NCBI GenBank assembly: GCA_017987895.1
Contig: JAGNSU010000002.1
Span: 64,074-128,073 of the forward strand
DNA length: 64,000 nucleotides
Direction of reading: 5' to 3'
Source of the DNA: Flavobacteriales bacterium
Lineage (GTDB): Bacteria > Bacteroidota > Bacteroidia > Flavobacteriales_F > PHOS-HE28
In this document: positions 11,366 through 33,435 of the stretch, piece after piece
Numbering within the stretch: position 1 is the first letter of the stretch
How the letters are laid out: every line of letters starts with the position of its first letter
The notes under the pieces: model-generated
Seen by the model: only the letters and a program-made list of their open reading frames with translations
What the model was told of the DNA's origin: nothing
Database searches by the model: none
Made by a program: the position numbers and the translations under genes

Positions 11366-11413
11366 TCTCTCCCGTGAAAGACCTCGCAAAGTACGACTTC
11401 CGGCCCCAGCAGG

Positions 11414-17791: not shown

Positions 17792-17894
17792 AGGTGAGAA
17801 CTTGACAGTGCGCGAAGGCCCGGCGATACCGGGCTTTCGCATTTGGTCCCTGAAGGGATCCTGCCAACTTTGTGGACCCAAGCAAACCCTTCGC

Positions 17895-19157: not shown

Positions 19158-21029
19158 TTAGTTCTTCTCCCGTTTTCCCTTGGGCACCGGTGCCGGGGCC
19201 GCGACCTCTTTCTTATCGTTGGATGGATCCATGTCCGCCAGGCGTCCGGCGCTGAACAGTTCAGCGCTGTTCCAAATACCGGGCACCCGAAGTGTAAAGG
19301 TGGGTTCCGGCCATGACCACGACCGTGCGCTCGTGAACGGATAGGATTCGCTACCGGTCGGCTTCGCCCCACGCATCAGCGAAAGCGGAATGTGTACCAC
19401 CGCGCTCGCCCCCCCCGTGTTCGCGAGCCGCACATCCACTGGCATCAGCATACCACCCAACCGCCGAACGCGCACTTGCGTGCTATCGCCTATGTCGAAG
19501 ATCGTATCAATGGCGTAGTCCGTTACGCGGACGGTGTTGATCCACTCATCGAAGTACCAATCCAGCTCCAGGCCGCTCGCCTTTTCCATGCTGCGCTCCA
19601 GATCCACAGGCATCGGGTGTTTGAACCGGCAAGCATCGAAGTACCGCAAGAGACCTTGCCGCATGGTGGTTTCACCGATCACGTACCCGAGTTGCTGAAG
19701 GAACATTTCGCCCTTGCTGTAGGCCGTGATCCCATAAGCGCGATTGGTCTCGAAATGATCGCCGTGGACGCTCATGGGTTCGTGTTCCGGCATCGCCATC
19801 AGCGCGCGATACCCTTCATATGCGCTGGCGTGAGGATCCGCCGTGCCGCCAAATAGGTGCTGCATCACTTTCGACCCTGCATATTCCGTGAACCCTTCGT
19901 CCATCCAGGGGAAATGACCCTCGTCGCTCGCCAGCACACCATAGTACCAGCTATGCACGCTCTCATGCACGCTCACGCCTACCAAACTGCCCAGCTTCCG
20001 CTTACCGGTGATCAGGGTAAGCATGGGGTACTCCATACCACCGTCCCCGCCTTGCGCGATCGTATACTCCGGCCAGGGGTAGCGGCCGAACTGCTCGGAC
20101 ATGAACTGAAAGGACCGCACCATGTGCGCCGGTAGTTGTTCCCATTCAGCGCGAAGTTCCGGGGTGTCCTGAAAGAAGAAGCGCAACAAGGGACCGTTGG
20201 GGACCTGCGCGGTGATCTGGGTGAATTCCGGATCGGCGACCCAGGCCACGTCATGCACGCTATCCGCTTTGAAGTGCCATTGAGCGTGGCCGTCGCCCCC
20301 TCGCACGGGAGCCGGTTCGGGCGCATACCCATGTCCGACCTCCTCGGGGTTCTGCAATACGCCGGTAGCCGCAACGGTGTACGCACTGTCAAGTGAGATC
20401 TCCACGTCATAGTTGCCCCATTCCCCGTAGAACTCACGACCCACATAGGGCTCGGCATGCCACCCACGCGCATCGTACGCGGCCACCTTTGGATACCACT
20501 GGGTCATGCTATAGGCCACCCCTTCCGCATTATTGCGCCCCGATCGCCGAACCTGTACAGGCACTTGGCCACTGAACCGTAATTCGACCTCACCTGTGCT
20601 ACCCGGAGGAATGGCGCTGGCCAATCGAGCGCGCAGAACCGTTCCCAAATGCTCCAACCGCGCGGCCTTCCCGGCTTGTGTCATGCTGCCAACGCGCAGT
20701 TCGCCTTGCTCCTCCGGCGCGAGCGCCGCGATCCGTGAGCCCACCCGTGGATCCGGGTCCGCGATGGTGCGCGATCGCACGTCCATTTCGCTGCCCGGCC
20801 TGAACGCGTTGAAATAAAGGTGGAACCAGAGTTCCTGGATGGTGTCCGGACTGTTGTTGGTGTACCGTAACCGCTCGGTCCCTGCGAAACGATGGGTCCG
20901 AACGTCCAGGTCCACCGTCAGCGCTACTTGGATCCACTGCTGCCAGCGGTCGCATTGGCACATGGTGGGAGAAGTAGAAAGGAAGGCGGCAGCGGAAACG
21001 GCCAGGTAACACGAACGGGGGAAGCTCAT
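19158..21029 (-). CDS. M1 family (gluzincin) metallopeptidase
   Basis: 623-aa ORF. HESVHSWYYG (HExxH) is followed by WMDEGFTEYAG. The N-terminus is hydrophobic. Confidence 0.85.
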   Translation of the reverse strand: MSFPRSCYLAVSAAAFLSTSPTMCQCDRWQQWIQVALTVDLDVRTHRFAGTERLRYTNNSPDTIQELWFHLYFNAFRPGSEMDVRSRTIADPDPRVGSRIAALAPEEQGELRVGSMTQAGKAARLEHLGTVLRARLASAIPPGSTGEVELRFSGQVPVQVRRSGRNNAEGVAYSMTQWYPKVAAYDARGWHAEPYVGREFYGEWGNYDVEISLDSAYTVAATGVLQNPEEVGHGYAPEPAPVRGGDGHAQWHFKADSVHDVAWVADPEFTQITAQVPNGPLLRFFFQDTPELRAEWEQLPAHMVRSFQFMSEQFGRYPWPEYTIAQGGDGGMEYPMLTLITGKRKLGSLVGVSVHESVHSWYYGVLASDEGHFPWMDEGFTEYAGSKVMQHLFGGTADPHASAYEGYRALMAMPEHEPMSVHGDHFETNRAYGITAYSKGEMFLQQLGYVIGETTMRQGLLRYFDACRFKHPMPVDLERSMEKASGLELDWYFDEWINTVRVTDYAIDTIFDIGDSTQVRVRRLGGMLMPVDVRLANTGGASAVVHIPLSLMRGAKPTGSESYPFTSARSWSWPEPTFTLRVPGIWNSAELFSAGRLADMDPSNDKKEVAAPAPVPKGKREKN

Positions 21030-21207
21030 GGGGCAAAGATGGGATCTCGCCCGATGCCCAGTTCTCGTGCCCGGTGATAGCCAGCGCGATCCGGGGCGAA
21101 CGCTAGGAGCCTGTTTATGATCTCTTCAAATGCGTTCTCCGGCCTCTTTTCCGCCGAGGCGAAGAATAGTCTCGGAGCCCATCATTCAAGAGATCATGAA
21201 CAGGCTC

Positions 21208-21699
21208 TCAGGACAGGAGGCGCTGGCGCAACGCGAACTCCAATTGACGGTTCGATTCCAGCAATTGCTGGGTGTAGGCCGTGCGATCCCGTTCCGCGCG
21301 AACTTCCGAGAAGGCCGCGTTGACAAGATGGCGCACCTGGTCCGGGTCCCATGGCTTGGTGATGTAGTTGATGACCCCTCCCTGATTGATGGCATCGACC
21401 AGCGCCTGCAGATCGGAATAGCCCGTAAGGAGCATCCGACGCACCTGCGGAAAGTGCTCGCGCACCAGCCTCAGCAACTCGCTACCGGGGGTGCCTGGCA
21501 TGCGTTGATCGGTGATCAGTACATCCACCCCCCGGTTGGAGAGGAAAAGCCAAGCTTCCTCCATTCCCGAGGCGGTCATCACATCGAACTCCTTCCGGAA
21601 GGCAGCATGGAACGCCTGGCGGTTGCCTGCGTCGTCATCCACGAACAGGACCCGGGGGATATCGGTGCGGCCGTCGATGTCAAGTATGCGTGCGGACAT
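21208..21699 (-). CDS. Stand-alone response regulator receiver (REC) protein with C-terminal coiled tail
   Basis: The ATG at 21699 gives MSARILDIDGRTDIPRVLFVDDD. DQRMPGTPG, LLTGYSD and ITKPWD motifs are present. Divergent from the 21873 operon. Confidence 0.85.
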   Translation of the reverse strand: MSARILDIDGRTDIPRVLFVDDDAGNRQAFHAAFRKEFDVMTASGMEEAWLFLSNRGVDVLITDQRMPGTPGSELLRLVREHFPQVRRMLLTGYSDLQALVDAINQGGVINYITKPWDPDQVRHLVNAAFSEVRAERDRTAYTQQLLESNRQLEFALRQRLLS

Positions 21700-21789
21700 G
21701 GAACTGGCGCTGCGTGTGGGTTGCAACGGACTTTAGCTACGAAAGGAAGGGGCTACGGGTTTCGCATCCGGGTCCGGGATGTTGAGAAA

Positions 21790-21819
21790 TTGTTCATAAT
21801 CCAACGATTTTTAGCTTTG
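21790..21819 (+). promoter_or_regulatory. Candidate Bacteroidota sigma-A promoter: TTG-N19-TAGCTTTG
   Basis: TTG at 21790-21792, a 19-nt spacer, TAGCTTTG at 21812-21819. It lies 53 nt upstream of the ATG at 21873. Confidence 0.4.
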
Positions 21820-21872
21820 AGCCGCCAAGCCTTCGTTGGCACTGCTCCGGTACCAATCTCTCTTCAGGAACA

Positions 21873-24191
21873 ATGGACAAGGTGCTCAGCGCGCTTCAGC
21901 GTGGGGTAACGGGGGATGTGCGCCAGCACACGCCGCTCTTCTTCCGCCTAGGCCGTCCGGAGGACCGCGCGGCTTTGGCGGGCCTCCTAGCAGTAGGTCC
22001 GTATATCCAGGTCCACGATACACTGCAGAGCCAACTGACCGAACTGGCCCGGACGCTGGATCCTTCCCAGCGGTTCACCAAGGAAAGTCTGCGGGAGGCT
22101 GCCCTGGCCCAATTGGGCGGGACCGCCTCTGAGGAATACGGCGTATGGGTCTACTACCCATGGAGCCAACGCTTGGTGCATCTGCTGGACGAGCAGGAAT
22201 TCATCCGTGTGCGCACGGACCGGAACCGCAACAAGATCACAAGGGACGAACAGGACACCCTAGCCACCAAACGGATCGGCGTGATCGGGCTCTCGGTGGG
22301 GCAATCGGTCTGTCTCACCATGGCCTTGGAGCGAAGCTTCGGGGAGCTGCGCATCGCCGACCACGATCATCTGGACCTGAGCAACCTGAACCGCCTCCGC
22401 AGTGGGGTGCATCAACTCGGCTTGGCCAAAACAGTGAACGTGGCCCAGGAGATCGCGGAGATCGACCCCTTTCTCCGTGTGACCTGCTTCCATGAAGGGA
22501 TCACCGCCGACAACATCGACGGTTTCCTGACCCAAGGCGGAAGGCTCGATGTGTTGGTGGAGGAATGCGATAGTGTGGACATCAAGATCCTCGCTCGCCA
22601 GCGCGCCAAAGCGCACGGAATACCCGTGGTGATGGATACCAGCGACCGGGGTATGATCGATGTGGAACGGTTCGACATCGAACCCACGCGGCCGATCATG
22701 CATGGATCGGTGGAGCACCTCGACCTGGACCTCGCCTCCAGGGTGCTCACGATGGAGGAGAAGCTTCCGTTCGTGATCCCGATGATGGGCCTCGAGAAGT
22801 TGAGCGGTCGCATGAAGGCCAGCATGCTCGAGATCGAGAGCAGCGTGACCACTTGGCCACAGCTCGCAACCAGCGTGGTGATGGGTGGCGCTGCCGTGGG
22901 CGACATCTGCCGGAGGATCTTGCTCGATCAACATCAGGAAAGCGGACGTTGGTTCCTTGACCTGGAGGACCTGATCCCCTGCGCGGTCGGAACGAGCGTC
23001 GGGCACGCCGCACCTCGCCCGACCCCTGAATCCCTGTCGAGCCTGGAAATGGAGCGTATCAGGGAACGGTGCGTAGAGATCCTCCACACCCCCCAGCCTC
23101 TTTCATCGGAGCACGCCAGGGCGATCGCGGAGGCAGGCGCGTTGGCGCCATCCGGTGGCAATGTTCAACCGTGGCGTTTCTATTACGACGGATCGGCCCT
23201 ATTGCTCTTCCATGATACCGCGATAAGCCATTCGGAACTGGATGGTGCGCACCTGGTGCCGACCATCGGGCTGGGGGCCTGTCTGGAGAATATGCTGCTC
23301 AAGGCGCGATCCCTTGGGATCAATGCGCGCACTGACCTCTATCCCTTGAAGGACGAACCGCGTCTGGTGGCCATTTTGGCGGCGGGCCGCCCAGACACCG
23401 TGTTACCCGATCCGTTGGCCGGGATGATCGCAGAGCGATGCACGAACCGACGCACGCCTTCCCGGATCCCGATCGCTCCCGCTGACCTGGCAGCATTGGT
23501 CGATGCTGGCAACGTCATCTCGGGGTGTGCTGTGCAGGTCCTGACCTCGAAGGATGATCTCGACAGGATCGCGGAGTTGGTGGGGATGGCCGAACGCATT
23601 CGAATACTGAACCCGATCGGTCATGAGGAGTTGTTCCACCGCGAGTTGAGGTGGACCAAGGAGGAAGCGCAACGCTCCCGCGACGGCCTTGATCTGGACA
23701 CTTTTGAAATGAGCCTGGCACAGCGCACGGCGCTGGGCGTGGCCGCCGACAGAGAAGCCATCGCACTGGTGCGGTCATGGAGGGGTGGCATGGGCTTTAC
23801 GCGCATCTCCGGCGATGTGATCCGAGCATCGAGCGCGGTGGTTCTGATCAGCGGCGTTGACGCCGGATCGAACGGCGCACTTCTTGGCGGACAGTGCATG
23901 GAACGCGTATGGCTCGCCGCAACGAGCCTCCAGCTAGCTGTGCATCCCATATCCGCCCCCATCCTTCTCGCGCACCACGTTCGGTTCGGTGGCGGCTATG
24001 GACTGAACGAAGTGGAGCAACTCGAGATCCTGGACTGCTTCCAGCGCATGCGACACCTATTTCCCGATCCCGCTGGCGAACCGCTCTTCCTGATGCGCCT
24101 CGCACATGCGGATCCGCCTTCCGCGCGTAGCTTGCGCAGGCCTTTGGAGGCGCTGTTCGCTCAACGTGGATCACAAAGCGTTCGACCATGA
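21873..24191 (+). CDS. ThiF/E1-like adenylyltransferase domain fused to two nitroreductase-like domains (Rv1355c/MoeY-type architecture)
   Basis: 772-aa ORF. RIGVIGLSVGQS and DHDHLDLSNLNRL are E1/ThiF motifs. APSGGNVQPWRF and a second C-terminal nitroreductase-like half follow. Confidence 0.8.
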   Translation: MDKVLSALQRGVTGDVRQHTPLFFRLGRPEDRAALAGLLAVGPYIQVHDTLQSQLTELARTLDPSQRFTKESLREAALAQLGGTASEEYGVWVYYPWSQRLVHLLDEQEFIRVRTDRNRNKITRDEQDTLATKRIGVIGLSVGQSVCLTMALERSFGELRIADHDHLDLSNLNRLRSGVHQLGLAKTVNVAQEIAEIDPFLRVTCFHEGITADNIDGFLTQGGRLDVLVEECDSVDIKILARQRAKAHGIPVVMDTSDRGMIDVERFDIEPTRPIMHGSVEHLDLDLASRVLTMEEKLPFVIPMMGLEKLSGRMKASMLEIESSVTTWPQLATSVVMGGAAVGDICRRILLDQHQESGRWFLDLEDLIPCAVGTSVGHAAPRPTPESLSSLEMERIRERCVEILHTPQPLSSEHARAIAEAGALAPSGGNVQPWRFYYDGSALLLFHDTAISHSELDGAHLVPTIGLGACLENMLLKARSLGINARTDLYPLKDEPRLVAILAAGRPDTVLPDPLAGMIAERCTNRRTPSRIPIAPADLAALVDAGNVISGCAVQVLTSKDDLDRIAELVGMAERIRILNPIGHEELFHRELRWTKEEAQRSRDGLDLDTFEMSLAQRTALGVAADREAIALVRSWRGGMGFTRISGDVIRASSAVVLISGVDAGSNGALLGGQCMERVWLAATSLQLAVHPISAPILLAHHVRFGGGYGLNEVEQLEILDCFQRMRHLFPDPAGEPLFLMRLAHADPPSARSLRRPLEALFAQRGSQSVRP

Positions 24192-24943
24192 TGGACACAC
24201 TGCACCTGATGGCTTTCAAAGCCCCCGACAGACCCGACCTGTGCGCTGAATTCCTCCATCAGCACGAGCTGGTCCTCGCAGAGTTGGGGATCCCCCTGGT
24301 CGTGAAAGCCGACGGATCATGGATCCATGACCCGTTCTGCTATGTGATCGTGGCCACCCACCCCACGGAGGGAATGGTCGGAGGTATCCGCTTGCAGCTT
24401 GATCACAACCCCGAGCGTAGCCTTCCACTGGCAGCTTCCCTGCGCAGCCTCGCGCCGGATATCCACGCTGTGCTGGATCAGTTGCGGCCCTTCGGGAACG
24501 GCGAGGTATGTGGACTTTGGAGCGCGAGCCGCTATGCGAACCGCGGGGTCACTGTTCTCTTGAGTTTGGCGGTCACGACGATAGCTCCAATGGTCGGTGC
24601 GAATCGGTTGGTCTGTTTCGTTGGCCATCACACCAAACGCCACCCGGAAAGGAACGGGTTCGTTCCGATGGCCGGCATCGGCGATCGCGGCGTGTTCGAT
24701 TATCCCACTTCGGAGTTCCGGTCCGTTGTTATGGTGAACCCGGATACCATTCTGCTGCCGTATGCGGACCCCAACCACCGGAAAGCGATCTACAGTTTGC
24801 GGCTGCGGCCTGACCAAACGCGGGAGGAACAACCGGCCCGCTTGCGACTCGAGGTCCGTTATGATCTGATCGTCGCGGCCGGGGTCATCGATCTGGTCGC
24901 GTACAGAATGATCTCCGAAGAGCGGTTCCGCCATACCGGATAG
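24188..24943 (+). CDS. Hypothetical protein with GNAT-like (acyltransferase/N-acyl synthase-like) pattern, translationally coupled to the upstream gene
   Basis: 251-aa ORF. Its ATG overlaps the upstream TGA (ATGA at 24188-24191). The segments VIVATHPTEGMVGGIRLQL and GEVCGLWSASRYANRGVTVLLSLAV...NGF resemble GNAT beta2-3 and beta4-alpha3. The fold call is inference only. Confidence 0.55.
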   Translation: MMDTLHLMAFKAPDRPDLCAEFLHQHELVLAELGIPLVVKADGSWIHDPFCYVIVATHPTEGMVGGIRLQLDHNPERSLPLAASLRSLAPDIHAVLDQLRPFGNGEVCGLWSASRYANRGVTVLLSLAVTTIAPMVGANRLVCFVGHHTKRHPERNGFVPMAGIGDRGVFDYPTSEFRSVVMVNPDTILLPYADPNHRKAIYSLRLRPDQTREEQPARLRLEVRYDLIVAAGVIDLVAYRMISEERFRHTG

Positions 24944-24992
24944 CGCCACGAGGCTCGCAACCTCCGGCCTGTGGGGAACGTAGGAGCGGCCG

Positions 24993-27137
24993 ATGAAAGC
25001 TCTCCGCGCGTGCGTTACCGCCCTCTTCCTTGGGTGGTGCGCCGCTTCGTATTCCATTGGCCCCGGTCCGGTGGACTTCCATGATGATCGGCGGCGACTT
25101 CCCATAGGAAAGAGCCTGGAGATCTTTTCGGACACCACGGGCTCCATGGACCTGGAGGACGTCATCCGGGTGGACCGCTTTGAGGCCCTCGGCATGGACG
25201 TTCCCAATCTCGGAGTCACCAGTTCCACCTTCTGGGTGCGCACATTGGTGCGGAACGAAAGCTCCTATGACCATGTCGTTCTATCCCTGGAATACGCGGA
25301 GATCGATGCGCTCGACCTGTATCTATCCATGGATGGCAGGATCCAGCGGTTGGCCGCGAAAGGTCAATCCGTACCTGCCGCGATGCGCTCGGGCGCCGAC
25401 CCGGAGTTCGCGTTCGACCTTCCAATTCCGAAAGGGCGCTCTGGACAGGTGTTCATGCGTATGCGAAGTACCAAGCAGCTCCAACTTCCTATCGTGTTGC
25501 GCACACCGCAGGAACTTACCGCGAACCGCTCGCGCCGGAACCTGATCCTCGGCGTCTACATCGGCATCATGGTGGTGATGGCGCTGTACAACCTCTTCAT
25601 CTTCTTCTCGATCCGGGACAAGAGCTACTTGTACTACGTCCTGTACATCCTTAGCGTGACCTCCACGCAACTGGCGTTCACCGGCATCGGTCCGTTCTAC
25701 TTGTGGCCCGGCAACACATGGCTCTCCACGTCAGCAACGGTGATCCTCACCCTATGCACCGCAACGCTGGGCTTCGAATTCGCCAGGCAGTTCATCCATA
25801 CCCGACGGCACACCCCTCTTTTGCATCGCATCGGCCCGGTATTCTATATCCTGTTCGCCGGTTGCATCTTCCTACAGCAAACGGGACAGGCCGTGATCGC
25901 CTACCAAATGGCGCAGGGCCTCTCGGGGATCTCGGCCCTCTATGTGCTGGCCATGGCGTTCCTGGCTTGGCGACGCGGCTCGCGACAGGCTTTCTTCTTC
26001 CTTATGGCCTGGAGCGCGTTCCTCATCGGTGTGGTCGTGTTCGTGGTGAAAGACCTTGGCGCACTTCCCTACAACGATCTTACGACCTACACCATGCCGA
26101 TCGGTTCGGCGATCGAGTGTGTCCTACTGAGCTTCGGTCTCGCCGATCGCATCAACATCCTCCGACGCGAAAAGGAACAGTCCCAGGCCGAAGCATTGCG
26201 CATATCGTTGGAGAACGAACGCATCATCCGCGAGCAGAACGCCATGCTGGAGGTGAAGGTGACCGAGCGCACCCTCGCTTTGCAGGAAAGCAACGATCAT
26301 CTCAAGCGCACACAGACCCAACTCGTGAACGCGGAGAAGATGGCCTCGCTCGGTCAGCTCACCGCGGGCATCGCGCATGAGATCAACAATCCGGTCAACT
26401 TCATCTCAAGCAACATCCCTCCCCTGCGCAGGGACATCGGTGACGTGCTGGAAGTGCTGGCGGAGTATCGAGAGCGGGGATCGAAGATCGATGACCCTTC
26501 GCTGGCGGAACTGCGCGCCAAGGAAAAGAGCCTTGACCTGGATGGTTCCATCACCGAACTCGATGCCATCATCCGGAGCATCGAAGAAGGCGCGGGCCGT
26601 ACGGCCGAGATCGTACGCGGACTTCGGAACTTCAGCAGGCTCGACGAGGACGACCTGAAACTCGCTGACCTGAACGAAGGCATTCAGAGCACGTTGCTCG
26701 TTCTCGCACCGCAGCTCAAGGAACGCGTACGGATCGATCTGGACCTGGAGGCGCTTCCCCCGGTGGAATGCCACCCCGGCAAACTGAACCAGGTTTTCAT
26801 GAATATTTTGAACAACGCCGTGCAGGCCATCCTCGAACAGCAACGCTCCGATGAAGGTCGAGTGCAGGTGAGTTCCCGCGTGGTCGGCGACCAAGTGGTC
26901 ATCAGCATTTCGGATGATGGCCCAGGCATATCCCCAAGCGTGATCGGGAAGATCTTCGATCCGTTCTTCACCACGAAGGACGTGGGTGCGGGCACTGGCC
27001 TCGGCCTTTCGATCGCCTTCAGCATCATAGAGAAGCACCACGGCAAGATCACCGTGGACAGCATCCCTGGCGGGGGCGCGACTTTCCATGTGACCCTACC
27101 CCTAGCCCAGACCAACGAGGCCCGCAAACGCGCCTAA
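24993..27137 (+). CDS. 7TMR-DISM family sensor histidine kinase
   Basis: 714 aa. It has a signal peptide, an extracellular domain, a ~7-TM block (residues ~190-400), the H-box AGIAHEINNPVNFI, and an HATPase with DDGPGI and GAGTGLGLS. Confidence 0.9.
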   Translation: MKALRACVTALFLGWCAASYSIGPGPVDFHDDRRRLPIGKSLEIFSDTTGSMDLEDVIRVDRFEALGMDVPNLGVTSSTFWVRTLVRNESSYDHVVLSLEYAEIDALDLYLSMDGRIQRLAAKGQSVPAAMRSGADPEFAFDLPIPKGRSGQVFMRMRSTKQLQLPIVLRTPQELTANRSRRNLILGVYIGIMVVMALYNLFIFFSIRDKSYLYYVLYILSVTSTQLAFTGIGPFYLWPGNTWLSTSATVILTLCTATLGFEFARQFIHTRRHTPLLHRIGPVFYILFAGCIFLQQTGQAVIAYQMAQGLSGISALYVLAMAFLAWRRGSRQAFFFLMAWSAFLIGVVVFVVKDLGALPYNDLTTYTMPIGSAIECVLLSFGLADRINILRREKEQSQAEALRISLENERIIREQNAMLEVKVTERTLALQESNDHLKRTQTQLVNAEKMASLGQLTAGIAHEINNPVNFISSNIPPLRRDIGDVLEVLAEYRERGSKIDDPSLAELRAKEKSLDLDGSITELDAIIRSIEEGAGRTAEIVRGLRNFSRLDEDDLKLADLNEGIQSTLLVLAPQLKERVRIDLDLEALPPVECHPGKLNQVFMNILNNAVQAILEQQRSDEGRVQVSSRVVGDQVVISISDDGPGISPSVIGKIFDPFFTTKDVGAGTGLGLSIAFSIIEKHHGKITVDSIPGGGATFHVTLPLAQTNEARKRA

Positions 27138-27140
27138 GCG

Positions 27141-28667
27141 ATGAACAAGGATCGGATCAAAGTGCTCTACCTGGATGACGAGGAGGGCAACCTGGTGGCC
27201 TTCCGCGCCAACTTCCGCCGCGATCTGGAGGTCTTCACCGCGACCACGGCCGAGGAGGCCCTGGCCATTCTGGACCGGGAACACATACCGGTCGTTATCT
27301 CCGATCAGCGCATGCCCCTGGTCACAGGGGTCGATTTCCTCGCACAGGTCAAGCAGCACCATCCGAACTCCATTCGGATGCTCCTTACCGGTTATGCCGA
27401 CATACAGGCTGTGATCGATGCGGTGAACAAAGGCCGCATCTATGCCTACGTGACCAAACCCTGGGATGCGAACGACCTTCTACTGCGCATCCAACAGGCC
27501 TATGAAGTGTATGGTCTGCGTGCCGACCGCGACCGCATGTTCCGGCGCTACGAGCAGGTGTTCGCCTCTTCGGGCGATCCGATCGTGATCGTCGACGAGA
27601 AAGGACGGATCCATGAGGTCAATCCGGCGACGGAGAAACTGTTCGGGATCGATCGTGCGCAGCTGCTGGCCCTTCCAATGAACGATCTATTGGATGACCC
27701 GGGATCCCTGCAGCGCTCCCTATCCGGCAGGCGGCGCGGGCGAGCCTTCCAGAACGTGGACCTGACACTACGCACTCCTTCCGGCCATACGGTGGACGGC
27801 CTGCTCACGATCAACTATCTCGGCCTGAACGAAGCTGGCGACCGCTTGTTCCAAGCCATCATCAAGGACATCACGGACCGGCGGCAAGAAGAACAACGGC
27901 TGGTGAAATTGAACGCGGACCTTGACCGCCGTGTGGCCGTGCGCACCCGTCAGCTACTTGAGGCCCTGGAAGACCTGGGCTCCTTCTCCTATACGGTGGC
28001 CCATGACCTGCGCTCCCCTTTGAAGAACATACTCGCCCTGAGCGAACTGGTGAAGGAACAGAGCGCGAAGAGCGACCCGGCCCAACAAGAGGTCACCGAA
28101 CGCATCCACCGCGGAGCCTCGCGCATGATCGACCTTGTAGATGACCTGCTCCGATTCTCCCAGAGCAATAACCGCGAACTGCAATGTGGCGAGGTGCGGT
28201 TGCGACCATTGGTACAAGAGGTGATCGACGAGATCCCCAACGCCGCGCACAAACCCTCCCTAAAGAACTCAGTGCCCGAGGGAACCTTGGTCCACGCCGA
28301 CGCCGCGATGTTGAAAGTGGTTCTGGTGAACCTGCTCTCCAACGCTGTGAAGTTCACACGACAAGTGGAGAACCCCGCGATCGAGGTGGGCAGCGAAGCC
28401 GAGGAAGGACGCACGCGGTTCTGGGTGCGGGACAATGGAGTGGGCTTCGATAGCACAGGCAGCAAGGCCGTGTTCGGGGCGTTCAAACGCATGCACCGGG
28501 CCGATCAGTTCGAAGGCAGCGGAATCGGGCTCGCCATAGTTCAGCGCGTCGTCAACAAACACGGCGGCGATGTGTGGGCGGACAGTACCGTAGGTAAAGG
28601 CACCACCATCACCGTCCAGTTACCGGACAGCGTCCCCGAGCAACGCCAACTTCTTTTCGCTTCCTAG
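27141..28667 (+). CDS. Hybrid REC-PAS-histidine kinase
   Basis: 508 aa. REC domain (VLYLDDEE, SDQRMP, LLTGYAD, VTKPWD), PAS-like region, H-box VAHDLRSPL, and HATPase (DNGVGF, GSGIGLAIV). It starts 3 nt after the upstream stop. Confidence 0.9.
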   Translation: MNKDRIKVLYLDDEEGNLVAFRANFRRDLEVFTATTAEEALAILDREHIPVVISDQRMPLVTGVDFLAQVKQHHPNSIRMLLTGYADIQAVIDAVNKGRIYAYVTKPWDANDLLLRIQQAYEVYGLRADRDRMFRRYEQVFASSGDPIVIVDEKGRIHEVNPATEKLFGIDRAQLLALPMNDLLDDPGSLQRSLSGRRRGRAFQNVDLTLRTPSGHTVDGLLTINYLGLNEAGDRLFQAIIKDITDRRQEEQRLVKLNADLDRRVAVRTRQLLEALEDLGSFSYTVAHDLRSPLKNILALSELVKEQSAKSDPAQQEVTERIHRGASRMIDLVDDLLRFSQSNNRELQCGEVRLRPLVQEVIDEIPNAAHKPSLKNSVPEGTLVHADAAMLKVVLVNLLSNAVKFTRQVENPAIEVGSEAEEGRTRFWVRDNGVGFDSTGSKAVFGAFKRMHRADQFEGSGIGLAIVQRVVNKHGGDVWADSTVGKGTTITVQLPDSVPEQRQLLFAS

Positions 28668-28673
28668 GCTCCG

Positions 28674-30410
28674 CTACGGCTGGACCAACCGGAGTTTGAG
28701 GCCCGGTAGCTCATCGATCACGATCGAGTAAACACCGCTCGTTAACCGGTGCGTGGCGATCTCCAAACGATCGGACAGCGACGAGATCCGCTCCGATCGC
28801 GCAACTCGTCCCGCGGCGTCTAATATCGAGATCCGGTAGCTGCCCGGGGCCATGCCGACCAATATCACTTCTTCCCCATTGGAGGGATTCGGGACCAGTT
28901 GCAACTGGGTCGCATGAGGTGAGCTCACCGACGTGGCTATGAACGTGTATACGCCTTGCGGATCGGCCCCGTGCGCCAAACCTGTAATGCTCGGCGTGTT
29001 CGCATCGAGGGTCACGACGTAGTAACTGAGCATCGGAAGACCCGGATGGTCCACCAGGATCCGATAGGTGCCGTGGGGGACGTTCTGGAACTGGAACACG
29101 CCATCGGCATCGGTGCGCACATAGCCAGCCAGCGTCGCAGCGGGCCAATGTTCAAGTGCGATGCCCTGATCCGGCCACGGGTCTCCAGGACCTTCGCTGC
29201 GCACAATGCCCAGATCGCCCAGATAACCTTCCAGATAACCGGTTCCGCTGAGGTTGCCCGTGCTTACCAATTGGATATCCGCCACCATGGTGGTATCGCA
29301 AAGCGCATGCACCACATCGGCATAACCCCAGTAGTAGGTGCTGGTGTGGTAGCTCGTCGCTGTACCAGGATAGAGCCCACCATCCGGGATGGCGCGCACC
29401 AGGTACTGACCGATGGGTTGTGCCGCGAACGCATAGTCCCCGTTCGTGCCAACAGCGACCGAATCGATGCGTATGGAACCTGTGGCGTTGAGGCCGTATT
29501 CGTAAAGCTCCACGCCCCCTGCCGTCACCGGCGCAGCGAGTGTGTCTTTGACCGTACCGCTGATCTCTATGTTACCGGCCGGGCAGTTCACCACCCATAT
29601 CTGTAGATCACGTCGGCTGCGGCCCACAACAATGCCGTTGCGCCATTCCTCGACCTGATAGGCCACAACGTAGTCGCCCAGCATGTTCGGAGTAGAACAA
29701 TGGTTGCCGGTCGTGGGGTCGAAGGCGTGGCCAGTTGCTGAGGGGAACGGATCGGACGGATCGAAGCCTGCTACGTATGGCACCGGGGCGCTACCATCGT
29801 GCAATGGTTCGACCATCTGATAAGTCAATGAATCCCCATCTGGGTCATAGCCCGCATTGGCTATGCAGAGCGGCGTGCTCAGACATACAAATGGTCCCGT
29901 GAAGTCCTGGTAGATCGGAGACGAATTCCCTGGCTGGTTCAGGTTATCCAACGTGGCGGACACGTAGAGATCATAAGTGCCTGCGTTCATAAGGTTGGAC
30001 ACCTCGTCGCGTCGGCAACACCAATGCCAGGATAGTATCCAATCCGCACAGGCCGAGAGCGTGATGGTATCCCTGTAATAGTGCAACCGGGCTCCTGGAT
30101 AGGAGCCCCCTTCACAGGTAGTCAACTGTCCCATGCAATTGATAGAGATCCCAACAGTGTCCGTGAGCACGATGTCCGTGTTGAACCCAGAGCCACAACT
30201 CGACTCGCACCATACGGACTGTAAAGGGTTGAGTACCGAGAAGGAGCAGTCGCTCAACACCGCAAGGCGCAACTCATAGTCGTTACCACCCAACCATGTA
30301 TAGGTGAGTTCTCCCCCTATCAAATGATTGGATCTCACCGGCATCGCGTGAAGAGCCGCCGTGAAAACAGCGATACATGTAAAGGGGCGAACGAATATGG
30401 AAAGGCGCAT
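28674..30410 (-). CDS. Secreted Cys-rich adhesin-like protein with carboxypeptidase-regulatory-like domains and T9SS C-terminal domain
   Basis: The ATG at 30410 gives MRLSIFVRPFTCIAVFTAALHA. The HLIGGELTYTWLG module is typical of gliding-associated surface proteins. The C-terminal LQLVPNPSNGEEV...GVYSIVI is a CTD. Confidence 0.8.
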   Translation of the reverse strand: MRLSIFVRPFTCIAVFTAALHAMPVRSNHLIGGELTYTWLGGNDYELRLAVLSDCSFSVLNPLQSVWCESSCGSGFNTDIVLTDTVGISINCMGQLTTCEGGSYPGARLHYYRDTITLSACADWILSWHWCCRRDEVSNLMNAGTYDLYVSATLDNLNQPGNSSPIYQDFTGPFVCLSTPLCIANAGYDPDGDSLTYQMVEPLHDGSAPVPYVAGFDPSDPFPSATGHAFDPTTGNHCSTPNMLGDYVVAYQVEEWRNGIVVGRSRRDLQIWVVNCPAGNIEISGTVKDTLAAPVTAGGVELYEYGLNATGSIRIDSVAVGTNGDYAFAAQPIGQYLVRAIPDGGLYPGTATSYHTSTYYWGYADVVHALCDTTMVADIQLVSTGNLSGTGYLEGYLGDLGIVRSEGPGDPWPDQGIALEHWPAATLAGYVRTDADGVFQFQNVPHGTYRILVDHPGLPMLSYYVVTLDANTPSITGLAHGADPQGVYTFIATSVSSPHATQLQLVPNPSNGEEVILVGMAPGSYRISILDAAGRVARSERISSLSDRLEIATHRLTSGVYSIVIDELPGLKLRLVQP

Positions 30411-30557
30411 GTGCTCGGGGAATAGTGCCGGCAAAGTACTTGGAACCCCGGAACATGCTCCGGCCGTAGGACATGTAACCCTTGCGATCCATGACCCGTA
30501 GCAACACCCACCCCATGATCGGAACACCGGGCCCGCACCAAGCATACCCTACGAACC

Positions 30558-31085
30558 ATGCGACACATTCTACTAGCCACCGGGATCCTGCTCTGCCTTT
30601 CACAGGTGGCCCAGGCCCAAGCGAAAAAAGGGAAATTGGTCGACCGTCGTGACCAAGCCGAAGGATGGTATCTGCCCATCCATGGCCAAGTGATGGTGGA
30701 CGGCAAGGCCGTCGACGGCTATTCGGTCGAACTCTGGAAAGGCGATGAACGCCTCGGCGATGTGGCCGTGCAGAAAAAGGGCGACTTCCATCTGGACCTT
30801 GATATCGACAATAACTTCTTGATCCGGGTGAAGAAAGAAGGGTACGAGGATAAACTCGTGCTCATCGACACCAGCCTTCCACCCGATCTGGTGACCTATC
30901 CGGACTACGAGTGTTACGTGAACTTGATCCCGCGCGGTAAGACCCAAGGCGTGGATCCCTTCTACACGGATTTCCCTTCCGCGATCGTGCGCTACAGCGT
31001 TGATATGGGCGGATTCTATCACAGCGAGCACTACCTCGAACACATCCAGACGAAAGTGGCGGGTTACGCCCAGGCCAGTTTCTGA
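30558..31085 (+). CDS. Small secreted protein carrying the carboxypeptidase-regulatory-like module shared with the 7472-11365 and 56049-56582 genes
   Basis: 175 aa. Signal peptide MRHILLATGILLCLSQVAQAQ. IHGQVMVDGKAVDGYSVELWKGDERL...FLIRVKKEGYEDK aligns by eye to the other two modules. Confidence 0.7.
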   Translation: MRHILLATGILLCLSQVAQAQAKKGKLVDRRDQAEGWYLPIHGQVMVDGKAVDGYSVELWKGDERLGDVAVQKKGDFHLDLDIDNNFLIRVKKEGYEDKLVLIDTSLPPDLVTYPDYECYVNLIPRGKTQGVDPFYTDFPSAIVRYSVDMGGFYHSEHYLEHIQTKVAGYAQASF

Positions 31086-31142
31086 TCCAACGAAACTCTT
31101 CCCGCCTTACAAAACGAACCGAACAAGGCAGGGAAGATCGAG

Positions 31143-31166
31143 AAGGCGGGCCCGTAAGCCCGCCTT
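31143..31166. terminator. Bidirectional terminator hairpin between convergent genes
   Basis: AAGGCGGGC / CCGTAA / GCCCGCCTT. It is followed by a T/C-rich run on both strands. Confidence 0.55.
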
Positions 31167-31192
31167 TCCTCGTTCCTAGCACTGTCGTTCCA

Positions 31193-32275: not shown

Positions 32276-32299
32276 GTTTAACGGCTTCGTTTCTGGCGG

Positions 32300-32307
32300 C
32301 GAAAGTA
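32300..32307 (-). promoter_or_regulatory. Candidate -7 box TACTTTCG for paaE
   Basis: CGAAAGTA on the + strand, 24 nt upstream of the paaE ATG. The same octamer precedes the MBL gene at 51738-51745. Confidence 0.3.
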
Positions 32308-32406
32308 GCTCTTCACCTCGCCCGGTCGCGATGGTCGAGCACCCCACCCGGCCATCGCGTACCCGCGACCTGAGCAAGATCAGCCTTCGTGCGACACGTT
32401 CCGGAG

Positions 32407-32414
32407 TATTTTCG
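32407..32414 (+). promoter_or_regulatory. Candidate -7 box TATTTTCG for paaA
   Basis: A TAnnTT(C)G variant 20 nt upstream of the ATG at 32435, in the divergent paaE/paaA spacer. Confidence 0.3.
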
Positions 32415-32434
32415 CCCACCAACCGCGCTAGCCG

Positions 32435-33376: not shown

Positions 33377-33380
33377 CCTG

Positions 33381-33419
33381 GATCGAAGCACCCGTACCGT
33401 CGACCCACTGGGTCGACCT
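33381..33419. repeat. REP-like palindromic element copy 1 (GATCGA..CGTA.CGTCGACCCAC.GGGTCGACC)
   Basis: GTCGACCCACTGGGTCGAC at 33399-33417 in the paaA-paaB spacer. About 31 of 38 positions are shared with the copy at 36766-36803. Confidence 0.6.
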
Positions 33420-33435
33420 TGAACGCACCGGAACA

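What the first reader, a model, noticed from the sequence alone, without database searches (positions are those of the whole stretch)
21208..28667. Compact signalling locus: E1-like/tandem-nitroreductase fusion + coupled GNAT-like protein + 7TMR-DISM kinase + REC-PAS-kinase, with a divergent stand-alone REC
Four co-directional genes appear to form one operon:
- 21873-24191, the E1-like/tandem-nitroreductase fusion.
- 24188-24943, the GNAT-like protein, joined by an ATGA overlap.
- 24993-27137, the 7TMR-DISM kinase, after a 49-nt gap.
- 27141-28667, the REC-PAS-kinase, after a 3-nt gap.

The operon sits behind a well-formed TTG-N19-TAGCTTTG promoter. It is transcribed divergently from a lone REC protein.

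The two enzymes look like makers or modifiers of a small molecule or peptide: an adenylating E1 domain, two flavin nitroreductase-like domains and an acyltransferase-like fold. The downstream genes are an extracytoplasmic-sensing kinase and a cytoplasmic PAS kinase.

An enzyme pair hard-wired to three two-component proteins suggests a self-produced signal with its own sensing circuit, or a redox/nitro-stress circuit. I do not know of a characterised system with this composition.
Basis: partly seen in the sequence, partly recalled or inferred. Interest (0 to 1): 0.7.

Follow-up and report, generated by a model that had tools for sequence, protein, structure and literature searches.

The report
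Oxazolone-lipid synthase wired to receptor kinases
Two enzymes that should make a small N-acyl-amino-acid-derived lipid (an oxazolone) sit in one operon with a membrane receptor kinase and two partner signalling proteins, and this pairing recurs across Bacteroidota, which suggests a self-made chemical signal with its own sensor and gives a testable role for a lipid class whose function is unknown.

Summary

The enzyme pair is not novel. [quoted passage not shown] The 251-aa protein is a LuxI/FeeM-fold acyltransferase homologous to TrzA (hhalign 97.9%). In mycobacteria, TrzA and TrzS make N-acyl tryptazolones, whose physiological role is unresolved.

The new part is the wiring. In 70 loci of the window's Flavobacteriales lineage the five-gene layout is kept, but so are the flanks. 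In distant relatives (including Solitalea, Sphingobacterium and a Chitinophagaceae MAG; 29–55% GC) with unrelated flanks and shuffled gene order, 33 of 34 well-flanked loci still pair the acyltransferase with a 7TMR-DISM kinase. 32 have a REC-kinase and 28 a lone REC. ThiF, FDO, methyltransferases or an FAD oxidase swap in and out.

The parts list matches Ralstonia phcBSRQ quorum sensing. Best explanation, at about 0.55: a self-produced N-acyl-amino-acid-derived signal with a dedicated receptor phosphorelay. I rate it a new variant of a known kind, testable in cultured strains.

The parts
21208..21726 (-). Stand-alone receiver (REC) protein, 172 aa, no output domain, transcribed divergently from the operon
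   Evidence: Pfam Response_reg 6e-20. The acidic pocket DDD, phospho-acceptor D (ITDQRMP), T (LLTGY) and K (TKPW) are visible in the translation. It is 44% identical to the REC of the REC-PAS-kinase. A lone REC accompanies the module in all Flavobacteriales-lineage loci and in 28 of 34 distant loci.
21790..21819 (+). Bacteroidota-type promoter-like element, TTG-N19-TAGCTTTG, about 55 nt upstream of the trzS-like start
   Evidence: Read directly. The same 30-nt block is conserved in L001, L012, L013, L015, L016 and L037-L039, with variants in L026 and L066. Overall 16 of 112 loci carry TAnnTTTG, against about 6% expected from shuffles. It was not detectable with the strict pattern in more distant loci. 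The sigma-70 scan found nothing here.
21873..23027 (+). ThiF-like (E1-like) ATP-dependent cyclase domain of the TrzS-like protein (residues 1 to about 385)
   Evidence: Pfam ThiF 3.3e-16. The whole protein scores 743 bits against NCBIfam NF005901 'Rv1355c family protein', cutoff 476. Invariant with actinobacterial TrzS homologues: G136, G139, S141, V142, G143, R160, D163, D165, N171, N173, R174, K186, C232, D233, D258, R259.
23028..24191 (+). Flavin-dependent oxidase (FDO, single-chain nitroreductase-like, Acg-type) domain of the TrzS-like protein
   Evidence: NCBIfam Acg family FMN-binding oxidoreductase 5.8e-39 over residues 418-697; Pfam Nitroreductase 8.7e-10. Invariant A425, P426, N430, Q432, W434, R522, R526, H584, E591, R593. 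The domain is missing in 14 related loci.
24188..24943 (+). TrzA-like N-acyl amino acid synthase (GNAT superfamily, LuxI/FeeM-like fold), 251 aa, start overlapping the trzS-like stop (ATGA)
   Evidence: AF2 pLDDT 90.6. Best PDB matches are the AHL synthases RpaI, MesI, EsaI and BjaI and the N-acyl amino acid synthase FeeM, E about 5e-7 to 2e-6. hhalign of its family against the actinobacterial TrzA family gives 97.9%, E 4.9e-13 over 192 columns. 14 of 49 distant members hit Pfam Acetyltransf_1. Overlap verified.
24993..27137 (+). 7TMR-DISM sensor histidine kinase: signal peptide, periplasmic DISMED2, 7TM bundle, HisKA, HATPase_c
   Evidence: Pfam 7TMR-DISM_7TM 1.7e-51, 7TMR-DISMED2 1.5e-24, HATPase_c 3.8e-27, HisKA 1.4e-6. 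It directly follows the acyltransferase in 115 of 136 loci, with one gene between in the other 21. DISMED2 plus 7TM are kept in 57 of 59 distant kinases.
27141..28667 (+). Soluble REC-PAS-histidine kinase (receiver-kinase hybrid without a DNA-binding domain), 3 nt after the previous stop
   Evidence: Pfam Response_reg 4.6e-16, PAS 7.4e-12, HisKA 1.1e-13, HATPase_c 3.6e-23. Junction verified. A REC-(PAS)-HK is present in 32 of 34 distant loci.
30558..31085 (+). Secreted 175-aa protein of unknown function. Conserved downstream neighbour in the Flavobacteriales lineage only; probably not part of the core module
   Evidence: Present after the REC-PAS-kinase in nearly all of L001-L075 but in none of L076-L159. 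No significant Pfam family. Separated from the operon in the window by a T9SS-sorted protein gene on the other strand (28674-30545).

Best explanation
The locus encodes a self-contained chemical signalling module of Bacteroidota.

Step 1, inferred from homology: the 251-aa TrzA-like acyltransferase N-acylates an amino acid using an acyl-CoA or acyl-ACP donor.

Step 2, inferred from equivalog-level homology to a biochemically characterised enzyme: the TrzS-like fusion adenylates the free carboxylate and cyclises it to a 5(4H)-oxazolone (ThiF domain, ATP). It then desaturates it with O2 (FDO domain, FMN). The product is a neutral, lipophilic, water-labile N-acyl oxazolone, or its ring-opened 2,3-dehydro-N-acyl amino acid.

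Step 3, inferred from conserved gene linkage and analogy: this molecule is the ligand of the adjacent 7TMR-DISM histidine kinase.

Step 4, inferred: the kinase passes phosphate to the two paralogous receivers, one on the soluble REC-PAS-kinase and one the lone divergent REC. These relay the signal to targets encoded elsewhere, since the module has no DNA-binding domain.

The layout (signal synthase, membrane sensor kinase, receiver-kinase without a DNA-binding domain, lone receiver) matches the Ralstonia phcBSRQ quorum-sensing operon.
For: Enzyme identity:
- NCBIfam Rv1355c-family equivalog, 743 bits against a cutoff of 476.
- TrzS/TrzA biochemistry from PMC12856293, with OxzAB and TyzACB as precedents.
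- The acyltransferase has the same structural neighbours (FeeM 2G0B, BjaI 5W8x) that were reported for TyzA.
- Its family is homologous to TrzA at 97.9% probability, E 4.9e-13.
- The catalytic and cofactor motifs of ThiF and FDO are invariant.

Operon: overlapping or near-abutting genes, a single promoter-like element, and no plus-strand terminator-like site.

Linkage:
- 70 lineage loci keep the layout.
- In unrelated genomic contexts with shuffled order, 33 of 34 well-flanked loci keep a DISM kinase, 32 a REC-kinase and 28 a lone REC.
- 21 loci have the order synthase, HK, REC-HK, REC.
- One ORF runs the acyltransferase straight into DISMED2 plus 7TM, and another protein fuses ThiF to the acyltransferase.

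Chemistry: the alternative tailoring genes in the same slot are ThiF, an ICMT-type methyltransferase and class-I SAM methyltransferases. ThiF, by its characterised chemistry, and the ICMT family, by its known activity, act on a free carboxylate. This fits an N-acyl amino acid core whose charge is masked, as in diffusible autoinducers.

Analogy: the Phc architecture is confirmed in PMC8578825.

Independent echo: actinobacterial trzAS sits beside GGDEF/EAL genes, and the authors note this for Mtb.
Against: There is no experimental link between any oxazolone and any kinase.

Gene linkage would also arise if the kinases merely regulate production of the compound.

The module has no DNA-binding regulator, exporter or obvious output, so the response is unknown.

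Known 7TMR-DISM ligands are not lipids, by my recollection: LadS senses calcium and RetS relates to glycans.

In 14 lineage loci the FDO domain is absent, and in some distant loci ThiF is absent too, so the signal, if there is one, is not always an oxazolone.

de Rond et al. saw no phenotype when bacteria were exposed to oxazolones.

The amino acid and acyl chain cannot be predicted.

Confidence: 0.55

Rival explanations
1. The kinases are regulators, not receptors, of the product. The 7TMR-DISM kinase senses an external or envelope cue (surface, glycan, ion, stress) and the phosphorelay controls synthesis or activity of the enzymes. The N-acyl oxazolone or N-acyl amino acid would then be an effector (antimicrobial, surfactant, membrane or stress lipid) rather than a signal.
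For: Linkage alone cannot distinguish a regulator from a receptor. Oxazolone production in Proteobacteria is induced by antibiotics, and the tyz genes are tied to oxidative stress. Related N-acyl tyrosines are antimicrobial. Tryptazolones are mostly cell-associated. DISMED2 is a periplasmic carbohydrate-binding-like domain (recalled knowledge).
Against: No DNA-binding response regulator is part of the conserved module, so direct control of the operon's own transcription is not evident. The tailoring chemistry changes (ThiF-FDO, ThiF, methyltransferases, FAD oxidase, none) while the same receptor architecture stays attached to the acyltransferase. The parts list is that of a proven synthase/receptor system, Phc. 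One ORF joins the acyltransferase to the receptor.
Confidence: 0.27
2. A redox, oxygen or nitro-stress circuit. The nitroreductase-like domains and the PAS kinase sense or detoxify redox-active or nitro compounds, and the E1-like domain is incidental.
For: Pfam Nitroreductase and Acg-family hits. Acg-family proteins belong to the mycobacterial hypoxia regulon (recalled). PAS domains often bind redox cofactors (recalled). The FDO step requires O2.
Against: The FDO domain is absent from 14 lineage loci and from 15 of 34 well-flanked distant loci while the kinases remain. The family member that has been characterised is a desaturase acting on an N-acyl amino acid or oxazolone, not a nitroreductase. 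REC-kinases in most distant loci lack a detectable PAS domain.
Confidence: 0.04
3. The E1-like domain activates a protein or peptide C-terminus (a ubiquitin-like, RiPP/TOMM-like or E1-E2 defence system), with the GNAT-like protein and nitroreductase-like domain acting as tailoring enzymes.
For: ThiF/E1 fold. Weak PADLOC E1-E2 hits, at most 31.5 bits. PDB sequence matches to TcdA and UBA5. TOMM clusters combine an E1-like protein with a nitroreductase-type dehydrogenase (recalled).
Against: Equivalog-level membership in the TrzS family, whose substrate is a small N-acyl amino acid. The partner is homologous to TrzA. No YcaO, E2, ubiquitin-like protein or precursor-peptide gene is among the five genes or recurs in the neighbourhoods. 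The other four proteins have no PADLOC hit.
Confidence: 0.03
4. Coincidental adjacency kept by common descent in one collinear lineage.
For: Within the window's lineage the flanks (M1 peptidase; p175; paaE and paaABCD) are as conserved as the module.
Against: Distant relatives share no flanks, span 29-55% GC, and show at least 16 different gene orders, yet keep the same set of components.
Confidence: 0.02

Closest known systems
TrzA/TrzS (Rv1356c/Rv1355c) N-acyl tryptazolone pathway of Mycobacterium, Rhodococcus and Nocardia (Kleetz et al., JBC 2025, PMC12856293)
   Same: The 772-aa protein passes the NCBIfam Rv1355c-family equivalog cutoff and has the same ThiF-then-FDO domain order and invariant motifs. 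The 251-aa protein's family is homologous to TrzA. The genes are adjacent and translationally coupled. In both phyla signalling genes lie next door: GGDEF/EAL in Actinobacteria and kinases here.
   Different: About 33-36% identity to actinobacterial TrzS. The gene order is reversed, with the S gene before the A gene. The neighbours are a phosphorelay rather than c-di-GMP enzymes. The amino-acid and acyl specificity are unknown. The FDO, or even the ThiF, is dispensable in relatives.
OxzAB of Pseudoalteromonas rubra and TyzACB of M. tuberculosis (N-acyl tyrazolone/phenazolone synthesis); NAS + ThiF + nitroreductase clusters for stieleriacines, kyonggic acids and thalassotalic acids
   Same: The same three activities: N-acyl amino acid synthase, ThiF-type cyclase and FDO desaturase. 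TyzA has the same structural neighbours, FeeM and BjaI. Methyltransferase tailoring also occurs in Stieleria clusters and in the Sphingobacterium variants found here.
   Different: None of these papers reports associated histidine kinases; the term occurs zero times in them ('kinase' zero times). TrzS-type and OxzB-type proteins fall in different subclusters.
Ralstonia solanacearum phcBSRQ quorum-sensing operon (3-OH-MAME/PAME)
   Same: The same parts list, and in 21 distant loci the same order: signal-synthesis gene, membrane sensor kinase, receiver+kinase protein without a DNA-binding domain, lone receiver. The signal there is a fatty-acid methyl ester, that is, a lipid with a masked carboxylate. 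Some variants here carry a methyltransferase in the synthase slot.
   Different: An analogy of architecture only. Homology of the kinases and receivers to PhcS, PhcR and PhcQ was not tested. The synthase is a GNAT-type acyltransferase (± ThiF-FDO), not PhcB. The sensor is a 7TMR-DISM protein. Different phylum.
LuxM/LuxN, AinS/AinR, CqsA/CqsS and Legionella LqsA/LqsS/LqsR (autoinducer synthase adjacent to a membrane receptor kinase)
   Same: A synthase gene next to its cognate membrane histidine kinase. LqsR is a receiver without a classical DNA-binding output. These points are recalled knowledge, not tested here.
   Different: Unrelated synthase families and different receptor folds. No membership is claimed.
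LuxI-type AHL synthases and FeeM-type N-acyl amino acid synthases
   Same: Top structural matches of the 251-aa model.
   Different: The window protein has no Pfam hit to any family, including FeeM. A distant member hits FeeM only weakly, E 1.2e-3 and below cutoff. The carboxylate-directed tailoring enzymes argue for an amino-acid acceptor rather than a SAM/homoserine-lactone acceptor (inference).

Membership tests
TrzS / Rv1355c family (NCBIfam NF005901) | Full-length match above the curated equivalog cutoff | tested here: met
   743.3 bits against a cutoff of 476, residues 17-761 against profile positions 9-717 of 722
TrzS / Rv1355c family (NCBIfam NF005901) | [quoted passage not shown] | tested here: met
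   Pfam ThiF at 116-253; NCBIfam Acg-family at 418-697; Pfam Nitroreductase at 406-437
TrzS / Rv1355c family (NCBIfam NF005901) | Conserved Asp of the ThiF adenylation motif (D217 in M. smegmatis TrzS), needed for cyclisation | tested here: met
   The ECD motif Asp (window D233) is invariant in 14 sequences including four actinobacterial homologues.
TrzS / Rv1355c family (NCBIfam NF005901) | FMN-site residues R540 and Q651 (M. smegmatis numbering) | tested here: inconclusive
   Several invariant Arg residues (R522, R526, R593) and the APSGGNxQPW motif are present, but exact equivalence could not be established without the reference sequence.
TrzS / Rv1355c family (NCBIfam NF005901) | ATP-dependent cyclisation and O2-dependent desaturation of an N-acyl amino acid to an oxazolone | not testable with these tools
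   Requires enzyme assays and LC-MS.
TrzA / TyzA / OxzA N-acyl amino acid synthases | Sequence-profile homology to TrzA (Rv1356c-like) proteins | tested here: met
   hhalign A2 against A6: probability 97.9%, E 4.9e-13, 192 aligned columns, motifs in register. Comparisons of the profile to single sequences were not significant.
TrzA / TyzA / OxzA N-acyl amino acid synthases | GNAT-derived alpha/beta/alpha fold closest to FeeM and AHL synthases | tested here: met
   Foldseek: RpaI, MesI, EsaI, FeeM and BjaI at E 5e-7 to 2e-6, TM (target-normalised) 0.54-0.68. The same neighbours were reported for TyzA.
TrzA / TyzA / OxzA N-acyl amino acid synthases | Gene adjacent to, or coupled with, a ThiF(-FDO) gene | tested here: met
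   ATGA overlap. A ThiF+acyltransferase fusion protein, P0330, exists.
Pfam FeeM (PF21926) / Pfam GNAT families | Match above the Pfam gathering threshold | tested here: not met
   No Pfam family for the window protein. Distant members: Acetyltransf_1 in 14 of 49 (best E 2.1e-5), and FeeM at E 1.2e-3, below cutoff, in one.
LuxI-type AHL synthase | Sequence match to a LuxI-family model; SAM as the acyl acceptor | tested here: not met
   No Pfam hit of any kind for the window protein. Only fold similarity. The acceptor specificity itself cannot be tested here.
7TMR-DISM receptors | Periplasmic DISMED2 domain followed by the 7TMR-DISM 7TM bundle | tested here: met
   PF07696 at 86.9 bits (cutoff 22) and PF07695 at 175.5 bits (cutoff 29)
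Phc-type quorum-sensing operon (phcBSRQ) | Signal-synthesis gene co-operonic with a membrane sensor kinase, a REC+kinase protein lacking a DNA-binding domain, and a lone REC | tested here: met
   This is architectural resemblance only.
Phc-type quorum-sensing operon (phcBSRQ) | Homology of the components to PhcB, PhcS, PhcR and PhcQ | not tested
   No Ralstonia chromosomal sequence was available in the collections used. The synthase here belongs to a different enzyme family.
Phc-type quorum-sensing operon (phcBSRQ) | Cell-density-dependent response to the self-made compound | not testable with these tools
   Needs cultures, mutants and synthetic ligand.
E1-E2 / ubiquitin-like or TOMM-type peptide-modifying systems | Presence of E2, ubiquitin-like, YcaO or precursor-peptide partners | tested here: not met
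   None among the five genes or among the recurrent neighbours. PADLOC gives only weak generic E1 hits.

The most novel reading that the evidence does not exclude
This is a phylum-wide quorum-sensing-type system of Bacteroidota. TrzA-like synthases would make N-acyl amino acids that are charge-masked, as oxazolones via ThiF±FDO or as methyl esters via methyltransferases, and would act as diffusible autoinducers. 7TMR-DISM histidine kinases would be their cognate receptors. That would give oxazolones their first physiological role and receptor, give 7TMR-DISM receptors a lipid ligand class, and give Bacteroidota a dedicated acyl-signal circuit.
Probability: 0.4. Interest if true: 0.85.

Novelty: new variant of a known kind. 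Interest (0 to 1): 0.68.

Why it matters
N-acyl oxazolones were discovered only recently (OxzAB, then TyzACB in 2023 and TrzAS in 2025). Their discoverers call the physiological role 'a major unresolved question'. Exposing bacteria to them has given no phenotype so far, and the only contextual hint was c-di-GMP genes next to trzAS in mycobacteria.

Here the homologous biosynthetic genes are hard-wired to a receptor kinase phosphorelay. This holds across several orders of Bacteroidota, through changes in gene order, genomic context and tailoring chemistry. That turns 'are oxazolones or N-acyl amino acids signals?' into a concrete experiment with a named candidate receptor in culturable organisms (Solitalea canadensis and several Sphingobacterium species).

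It also nominates a ligand class for the widespread but poorly understood 7TMR-DISM receptors. And it offers a candidate acyl-signal communication system in a phylum where, to my recollection, no dedicated synthase/receptor pair of this sort has been characterised.

Tried and rejected
- **Sequence searches of the 251-aa protein.** Pfam, NCBIfam, PADLOC and the PDB gave nothing usable. Only the family profile touched GNAT motif A in the PDB.
- **Profile against single TrzA-like sequences.** Not significant (E 0.016-0.55). Significance needed a TrzA-family profile.
- **Neighbourhoods of the closest homologues.** L001-L006 and L012-L075 turned out to be one collinear lineage with conserved flanks, so I rejected them as independent evidence for linkage.
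- **Broad alignments A2 and A4.** Narrower subsets A3 and A5 worked.
- **Plasmid-borne actinobacterial homologues.** L008 and L011 lack a TrzA neighbour, and the Streptomyces ThiF-only gene pairs with an unrelated GNAT of the Acetyltransf_3 type.
- **Promoter motif.** The strict TAnnTTTG pattern is conserved only in the nearest relatives. The sigma-70 scan is uninformative for Bacteroidota.
- **Search for a further conserved component.** Clustering of flanking ORFs found only extra REC proteins, with no exporter or DNA-binding regulator.
- **Defence-system reading.** Rejected.
- **Literature.** Searches for an earlier description of oxazolone or NAS genes coupled to kinases, or of 7TMR-DISM with autoinducers, found none. 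The statement that Bacteroidota lack LuxI homologues could not be verified in the library and is used only as recalled background.

Full report
**1. Observation**

Pfam and NCBIfam confirm the domain calls:
- 21873-24191: ThiF plus a nitroreductase-like/Acg-type flavin domain.
- 24993-27137: 7TMR-DISMED2 + 7TMR-DISM_7TM + HisKA + HATPase_c.
- 27141-28667: REC + PAS + HisKA + HATPase_c.
- 21208-21726 on the opposite strand: a receiver domain alone.

The junctions were read from the sequence. ATG 24188-24190 overlaps TGA 24189-24191. A 49-nt spacer without a hairpin precedes 24993. TAA 27135-27137 is followed by 3 nt and then ATG 27141. The terminator scan found no plus-strand site anywhere in 20900-31200. 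The promoter-like element is real: TTG 21790-21792, 19 nt, TAGCTTTG 21812-21819. It matches the Bacteroidota -33/-7 consensus as I recall it. The window is about 60% G+C. Its closest public relative is an uncultured Flavobacteriales MAG, with a 96% identical 251-aa protein.

**2. What the enzymes are**

The 772-aa protein is not an orphan architecture. It scores 743 bits against NCBIfam NF005901 'Rv1355c family protein', an equivalog model with a cutoff of 476.

[quoted passage not shown] It performs ATP-dependent cyclisation and then O2-dependent desaturation of N-acyl-tryptophan to N-acyl tryptazolone. Its neighbour Rv1356c (TrzA) is the amino-acid N-acyltransferase (PMC12856293). Earlier relatives are OxzAB of Pseudoalteromonas rubra and TyzACB of M. 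tuberculosis.

An alignment of the window protein with four actinobacterial Rv1355c-family proteins and nine Bacteroidota homologues shows these motifs invariant:
- ThiF domain: the nucleotide loop (G136, G139, S141-G143), R160, D163, D165, N171, N173, R174, K186 and the ECD aspartate (D233).
- FDO domain: APSGGNxQPW, R522, R526, H584, E591 and R593.

The enzyme therefore looks catalytically intact. Mapping to the published D217, R540 and Q651 is by motif only.

The 251-aa protein has no Pfam, NCBIfam or PDB sequence match. Four lines of evidence still place it:
- An AlphaFold model built on 44 homologues is confident (pLDDT 90.6, pTM 0.87).
- Its best structural matches are the AHL synthases RpaI, MesI, EsaI and BjaI and the N-acyl amino acid synthase FeeM (E 5e-7 to 2e-6). 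These are the same structures reported as nearest to TyzA.
- A profile of its family aligns with a profile of actinobacterial TrzA proteins at 97.9% probability, E 4.9e-13, over 192 columns, with the MVGGIRLQ/VVGGVRAQ and GEVCGLW/VVExKxAW motifs in register. The TrzA profile was seeded from the gene directly upstream of trzS in Nocardia farcinica.
- Distant members of the family hit Pfam GNAT models (14 of 49).

The pair is therefore a TrzS/TrzA-like N-acyl-oxazolone pathway, with the gene order reversed relative to mycobacteria.

**3. Is the link to the two-component genes real?**

The first neighbourhoods and a scan of one genome per species (64 loci, 96% down to 31% identity of the 251-aa protein) all showed the same layout: M1 peptidase and REC on the minus strand; ThiF(-FDO), acyltransferase, DISM kinase, REC-PAS kinase and a 175-aa protein on the plus strand; paaE on the minus strand. 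Because the flanks are conserved too, I did not count this as independent evidence.

An exhaustive HMMER search with the family profile then found 564 cluster representatives. Their loci are decisive.
- **L076** has flanks of pdxA, rpmF, plsX and fabH on one side and an LPG synthase and a sigma-70 gene on the other. It carries REC (minus strand), then acyltransferase, 7TMR-DISM kinase, REC-kinase and REC, with overlapping genes and no ThiF or FDO.
- **L078** has still other flanks and a ThiF-only gene.
- A metagenome scan returned more than 556 relatives, of which 80 loci were kept. None has the M1-peptidase, p175 or paaE flanks, and they span 29-55% G+C.
- Of the 34 loci with at least 3.5 kb upstream and 5.5 kb downstream, 33 contain a DISM kinase, 32 a REC-kinase, 28 a lone REC, 25 a ThiF gene and 19 an FDO domain. 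They show 16 different arrangements. Examples are REC-HK → ThiF-FDO → AT → DISM-HK → REC, AT → ThiF → DISM-HK → REC-HK, and AT → DISM-HK → REC-HK → REC on the minus strand.
- The kinase follows the acyltransferase directly in 115 of 136 loci. It keeps both DISMED2 and the 7TM bundle in 57 of 59.
- One ORF (P0226) runs from the acyltransferase straight into DISMED2 and 7TM, and P0330 fuses ThiF to the acyltransferase.
- Exact-sequence look-ups place variants in cultured Solitalea canadensis and in Sphingobacterium bambusae, S. thalpophilum, S. prati and others, and in a Chitinophagaceae MAG.

The deepest conserved pairing is acyltransferase with receptor kinase. ThiF and FDO are accessory layers.

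**4. Variation that informs the chemistry**

The FDO domain is missing (ThiF-only genes of about 385-415 aa, still overlapping the acyltransferase gene) in 14 loci of the window's own lineage and in many distant loci.

Where ThiF is absent, the slot between acyltransferase and kinase holds one of three things:
- an ICMT/PEMT-family membrane methyltransferase (L098, L106);
- a class-I SAM methyltransferase (L132, L142, L147, L150 and others);
- an FAD_binding_4 oxidase (L109, L158).

ThiF cyclisation needs a free carboxylate, and ICMT enzymes methylate carboxylates (established knowledge of those families). My inference is that the common core product is an N-acyl amino acid whose carboxylate is then masked, as an oxazolone or possibly as a methyl ester. 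This argues against a homoserine-lactone product despite the LuxI-like fold. The result would be neutral, lipophilic and hydrolytically labile molecules. de Rond et al. report a half-life of hours at pH 8.

**5. How it most likely works**

Shown by homology to characterised enzymes: N-acylation of an amino acid, then ATP-dependent cyclisation and O2-dependent desaturation to an N-acyl oxazolone, or its ring-opened dehydro acid as in stieleriacine-type compounds.

Inferred from linkage: the product is perceived by the 7TMR-DISM kinase. That kinase would phosphorylate two paralogous receivers, which are 44% identical and both carry the full D/D/T/K set. One is on the soluble REC-PAS-kinase and the other is the lone divergent REC.

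No DNA-binding domain, exporter or other family is conserved with the module. Clustering of flanking ORFs found only one more recurrent family, a short CheY-like REC directly downstream of the REC-kinase in 21 loci. The output must therefore go through proteins encoded elsewhere.

This parts list equals that of Ralstonia phcBSRQ: synthase PhcB, sensor kinase PhcS, PhcR with receiver and kinase domains but no DNA-binding domain, and PhcQ with a receiver only (PMC8578825). A 2026 paper title reports that PhcQ acts by binding the regulator PhcA (PMC13320629). That is a precedent for output through a lone receiver.

I put this explanation at about 0.55. The main rival, at about 0.27, is that the kinases sense something else and merely control production of an effector lipid. 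Gene linkage cannot separate the two.

A redox/nitro-stress circuit is unlikely because the FDO domain is dispensable. An E1-type protein or peptide modifier is unlikely given the TrzS/TrzA homology, the absence of E2, YcaO or precursor partners, and only weak generic PADLOC hits. Coincidence is excluded.

**6. Comparison with what is known, and novelty**

The enzymes are new members of a known family. What I could not find described is their coupling to a dedicated phosphorelay:
- The oxazolone, ThiF-review and N-acyl-tyrosine papers contain no mention of histidine kinases.
- Searches for 7TMR-DISM with autoinducer, or for N-acyl amino acids with sensor kinases in Bacteroidota, gave nothing relevant.
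- The TrzAS authors call the physiological role of oxazolones 'a major unresolved question'. They note a resemblance to AHLs and the neighbouring c-di-GMP genes in Mtb. I saw the same adjacency in Nocardia (trzA, trzS, then GAF-GGDEF-EAL) and on a Rhodococcus plasmid.

The Bacteroidota module is a much stronger contextual argument of the same type, and it names a candidate receptor. I therefore rate it a new variant of a known kind: a synthase/receptor-kinase signalling cluster built from oxazolone or N-acyl-amino-acid biosynthesis and a 7TMR-DISM receptor. Interest is about 0.68.

**7. Limits**

Everything beyond enzyme family assignment and gene linkage is inference. The amino acid, the acyl chain, the real end product, the ligand-receptor relationship, the phosphotransfer route and the output are all untested. 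Loci from metagenomes are partly redundant. Taxon names are available for only a few distant members. Homology to the Phc proteins was not examined.

Noticed in passing
window 7472-12115 (-): A 1,547-aa ORF lies under a region of unusual base composition (AT skew -0.33 and -0.24 at 8-12 kb against about 0 elsewhere, G+C 0.615). It has no Pfam family above cutoff, only sub-threshold TPR and tyrosine-decarboxylase C-terminal hits.
   Followed up: partly
window 17802-19151 (+): An FAD-dependent enzyme with a Trp_halogenase-family hit (2e-23) sits two genes upstream of the module, beyond the M1 peptidase. It is kept at that position in only a subset of related loci (L001, L012, L013, L015, L016, L027, L029, L037, L039). 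A link to a tryptophan-derived product is conceivable but untested.
   Followed up: partly
window 28674-30545 (-): A T9SS-sorted protein gene (CarboxypepD_reg domain plus Por_Secre_tail) is inserted convergently between the REC-PAS-kinase and the conserved 175-aa gene. This occurs only in the window, L012, L013, L069 and L073. All other related loci have the 175-aa gene directly downstream.
   Followed up: partly
window 30558-31085 (+): A 175-aa protein with a signal peptide and no Pfam family is conserved directly after the kinases throughout the Flavobacteriales lineage but is absent from all distant module loci. Its function is unknown.
   Followed up: partly
L006, L018, L019, L027, L029, L032, L040, L041, L044, L048, L049, L062, L063, L074: The FDO (nitroreductase-like) half of the TrzS-like gene is missing, leaving a compact ThiF-only gene that still overlaps the acyltransferase gene. 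No separate FDO gene was seen within the 20-kb loci. These species would make a saturated oxazolone or another adenylate-derived product.
   Followed up: partly
P0307, P0264, P0330, P0226 (L079 2046-3779): The acyltransferase domain also occurs fused to a TIR domain, to leucine-rich repeats, to ThiF, and in one ORF to DISMED2 plus 7TM. The last is on a short contig, so an assembly or frame artefact is not excluded. The TIR and LRR fusions hint at uses of this domain outside the kinase module.
   Followed up: partly
L074 6441-14761; L006 8844-10749: In L074 the whole module is broken into many short ORFs. In L006 the ThiF-FDO gene and the acyltransferase gene are truncated or split, and the paa genes are fragmented too. 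This could be real decay or long-read frameshift errors.
   Followed up: no
L010 5066-9838; L007 3708-7956: In Nocardia farcinica the order is trzA-like, trzS, then GAF-GGDEF-EAL, with the last ORF overlapping the trzS stop. On a Rhodococcus qingshengii plasmid a GGDEF gene and a divergent TrzA-like gene flank an Rv1355c-family gene. So the oxazolone genes also sit beside signalling genes in Actinobacteria.
   Followed up: partly
L009 5914-7712: A Streptomyces plasmid carries a ThiF-only protein 46.7% identical to the N-terminal half of the window protein, which is higher than the 33-36% seen for mycobacterial TrzS. It overlaps an unrelated GNAT (Acetyltransf_3) gene and lies next to a MerR regulator. 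This may be a different ThiF-acyltransferase pathway.
   Followed up: no
window 31193-33436 (-): The listed 747-aa ORF is an over-extension typical of high-G+C DNA. Only its C-terminal ~360 residues correspond to the PaaE-like ferredoxin reductase (FAD_binding_6, NAD_binding_1, Fer2) called at this position in related loci, upstream of paaABCD.
   Followed up: partly
window 21790-21819 and the equivalent sites in L001, L012, L013, L015, L016, L037-L039: The whole 30-nt block TTGTT(A/C)ATAA..C...(C/T)..TTG.TTAGCTTTG, not only the two promoter elements, is conserved among loci whose acyltransferases are only about 48-96% identical to the window's. It might include a regulator binding site.
   Followed up: no
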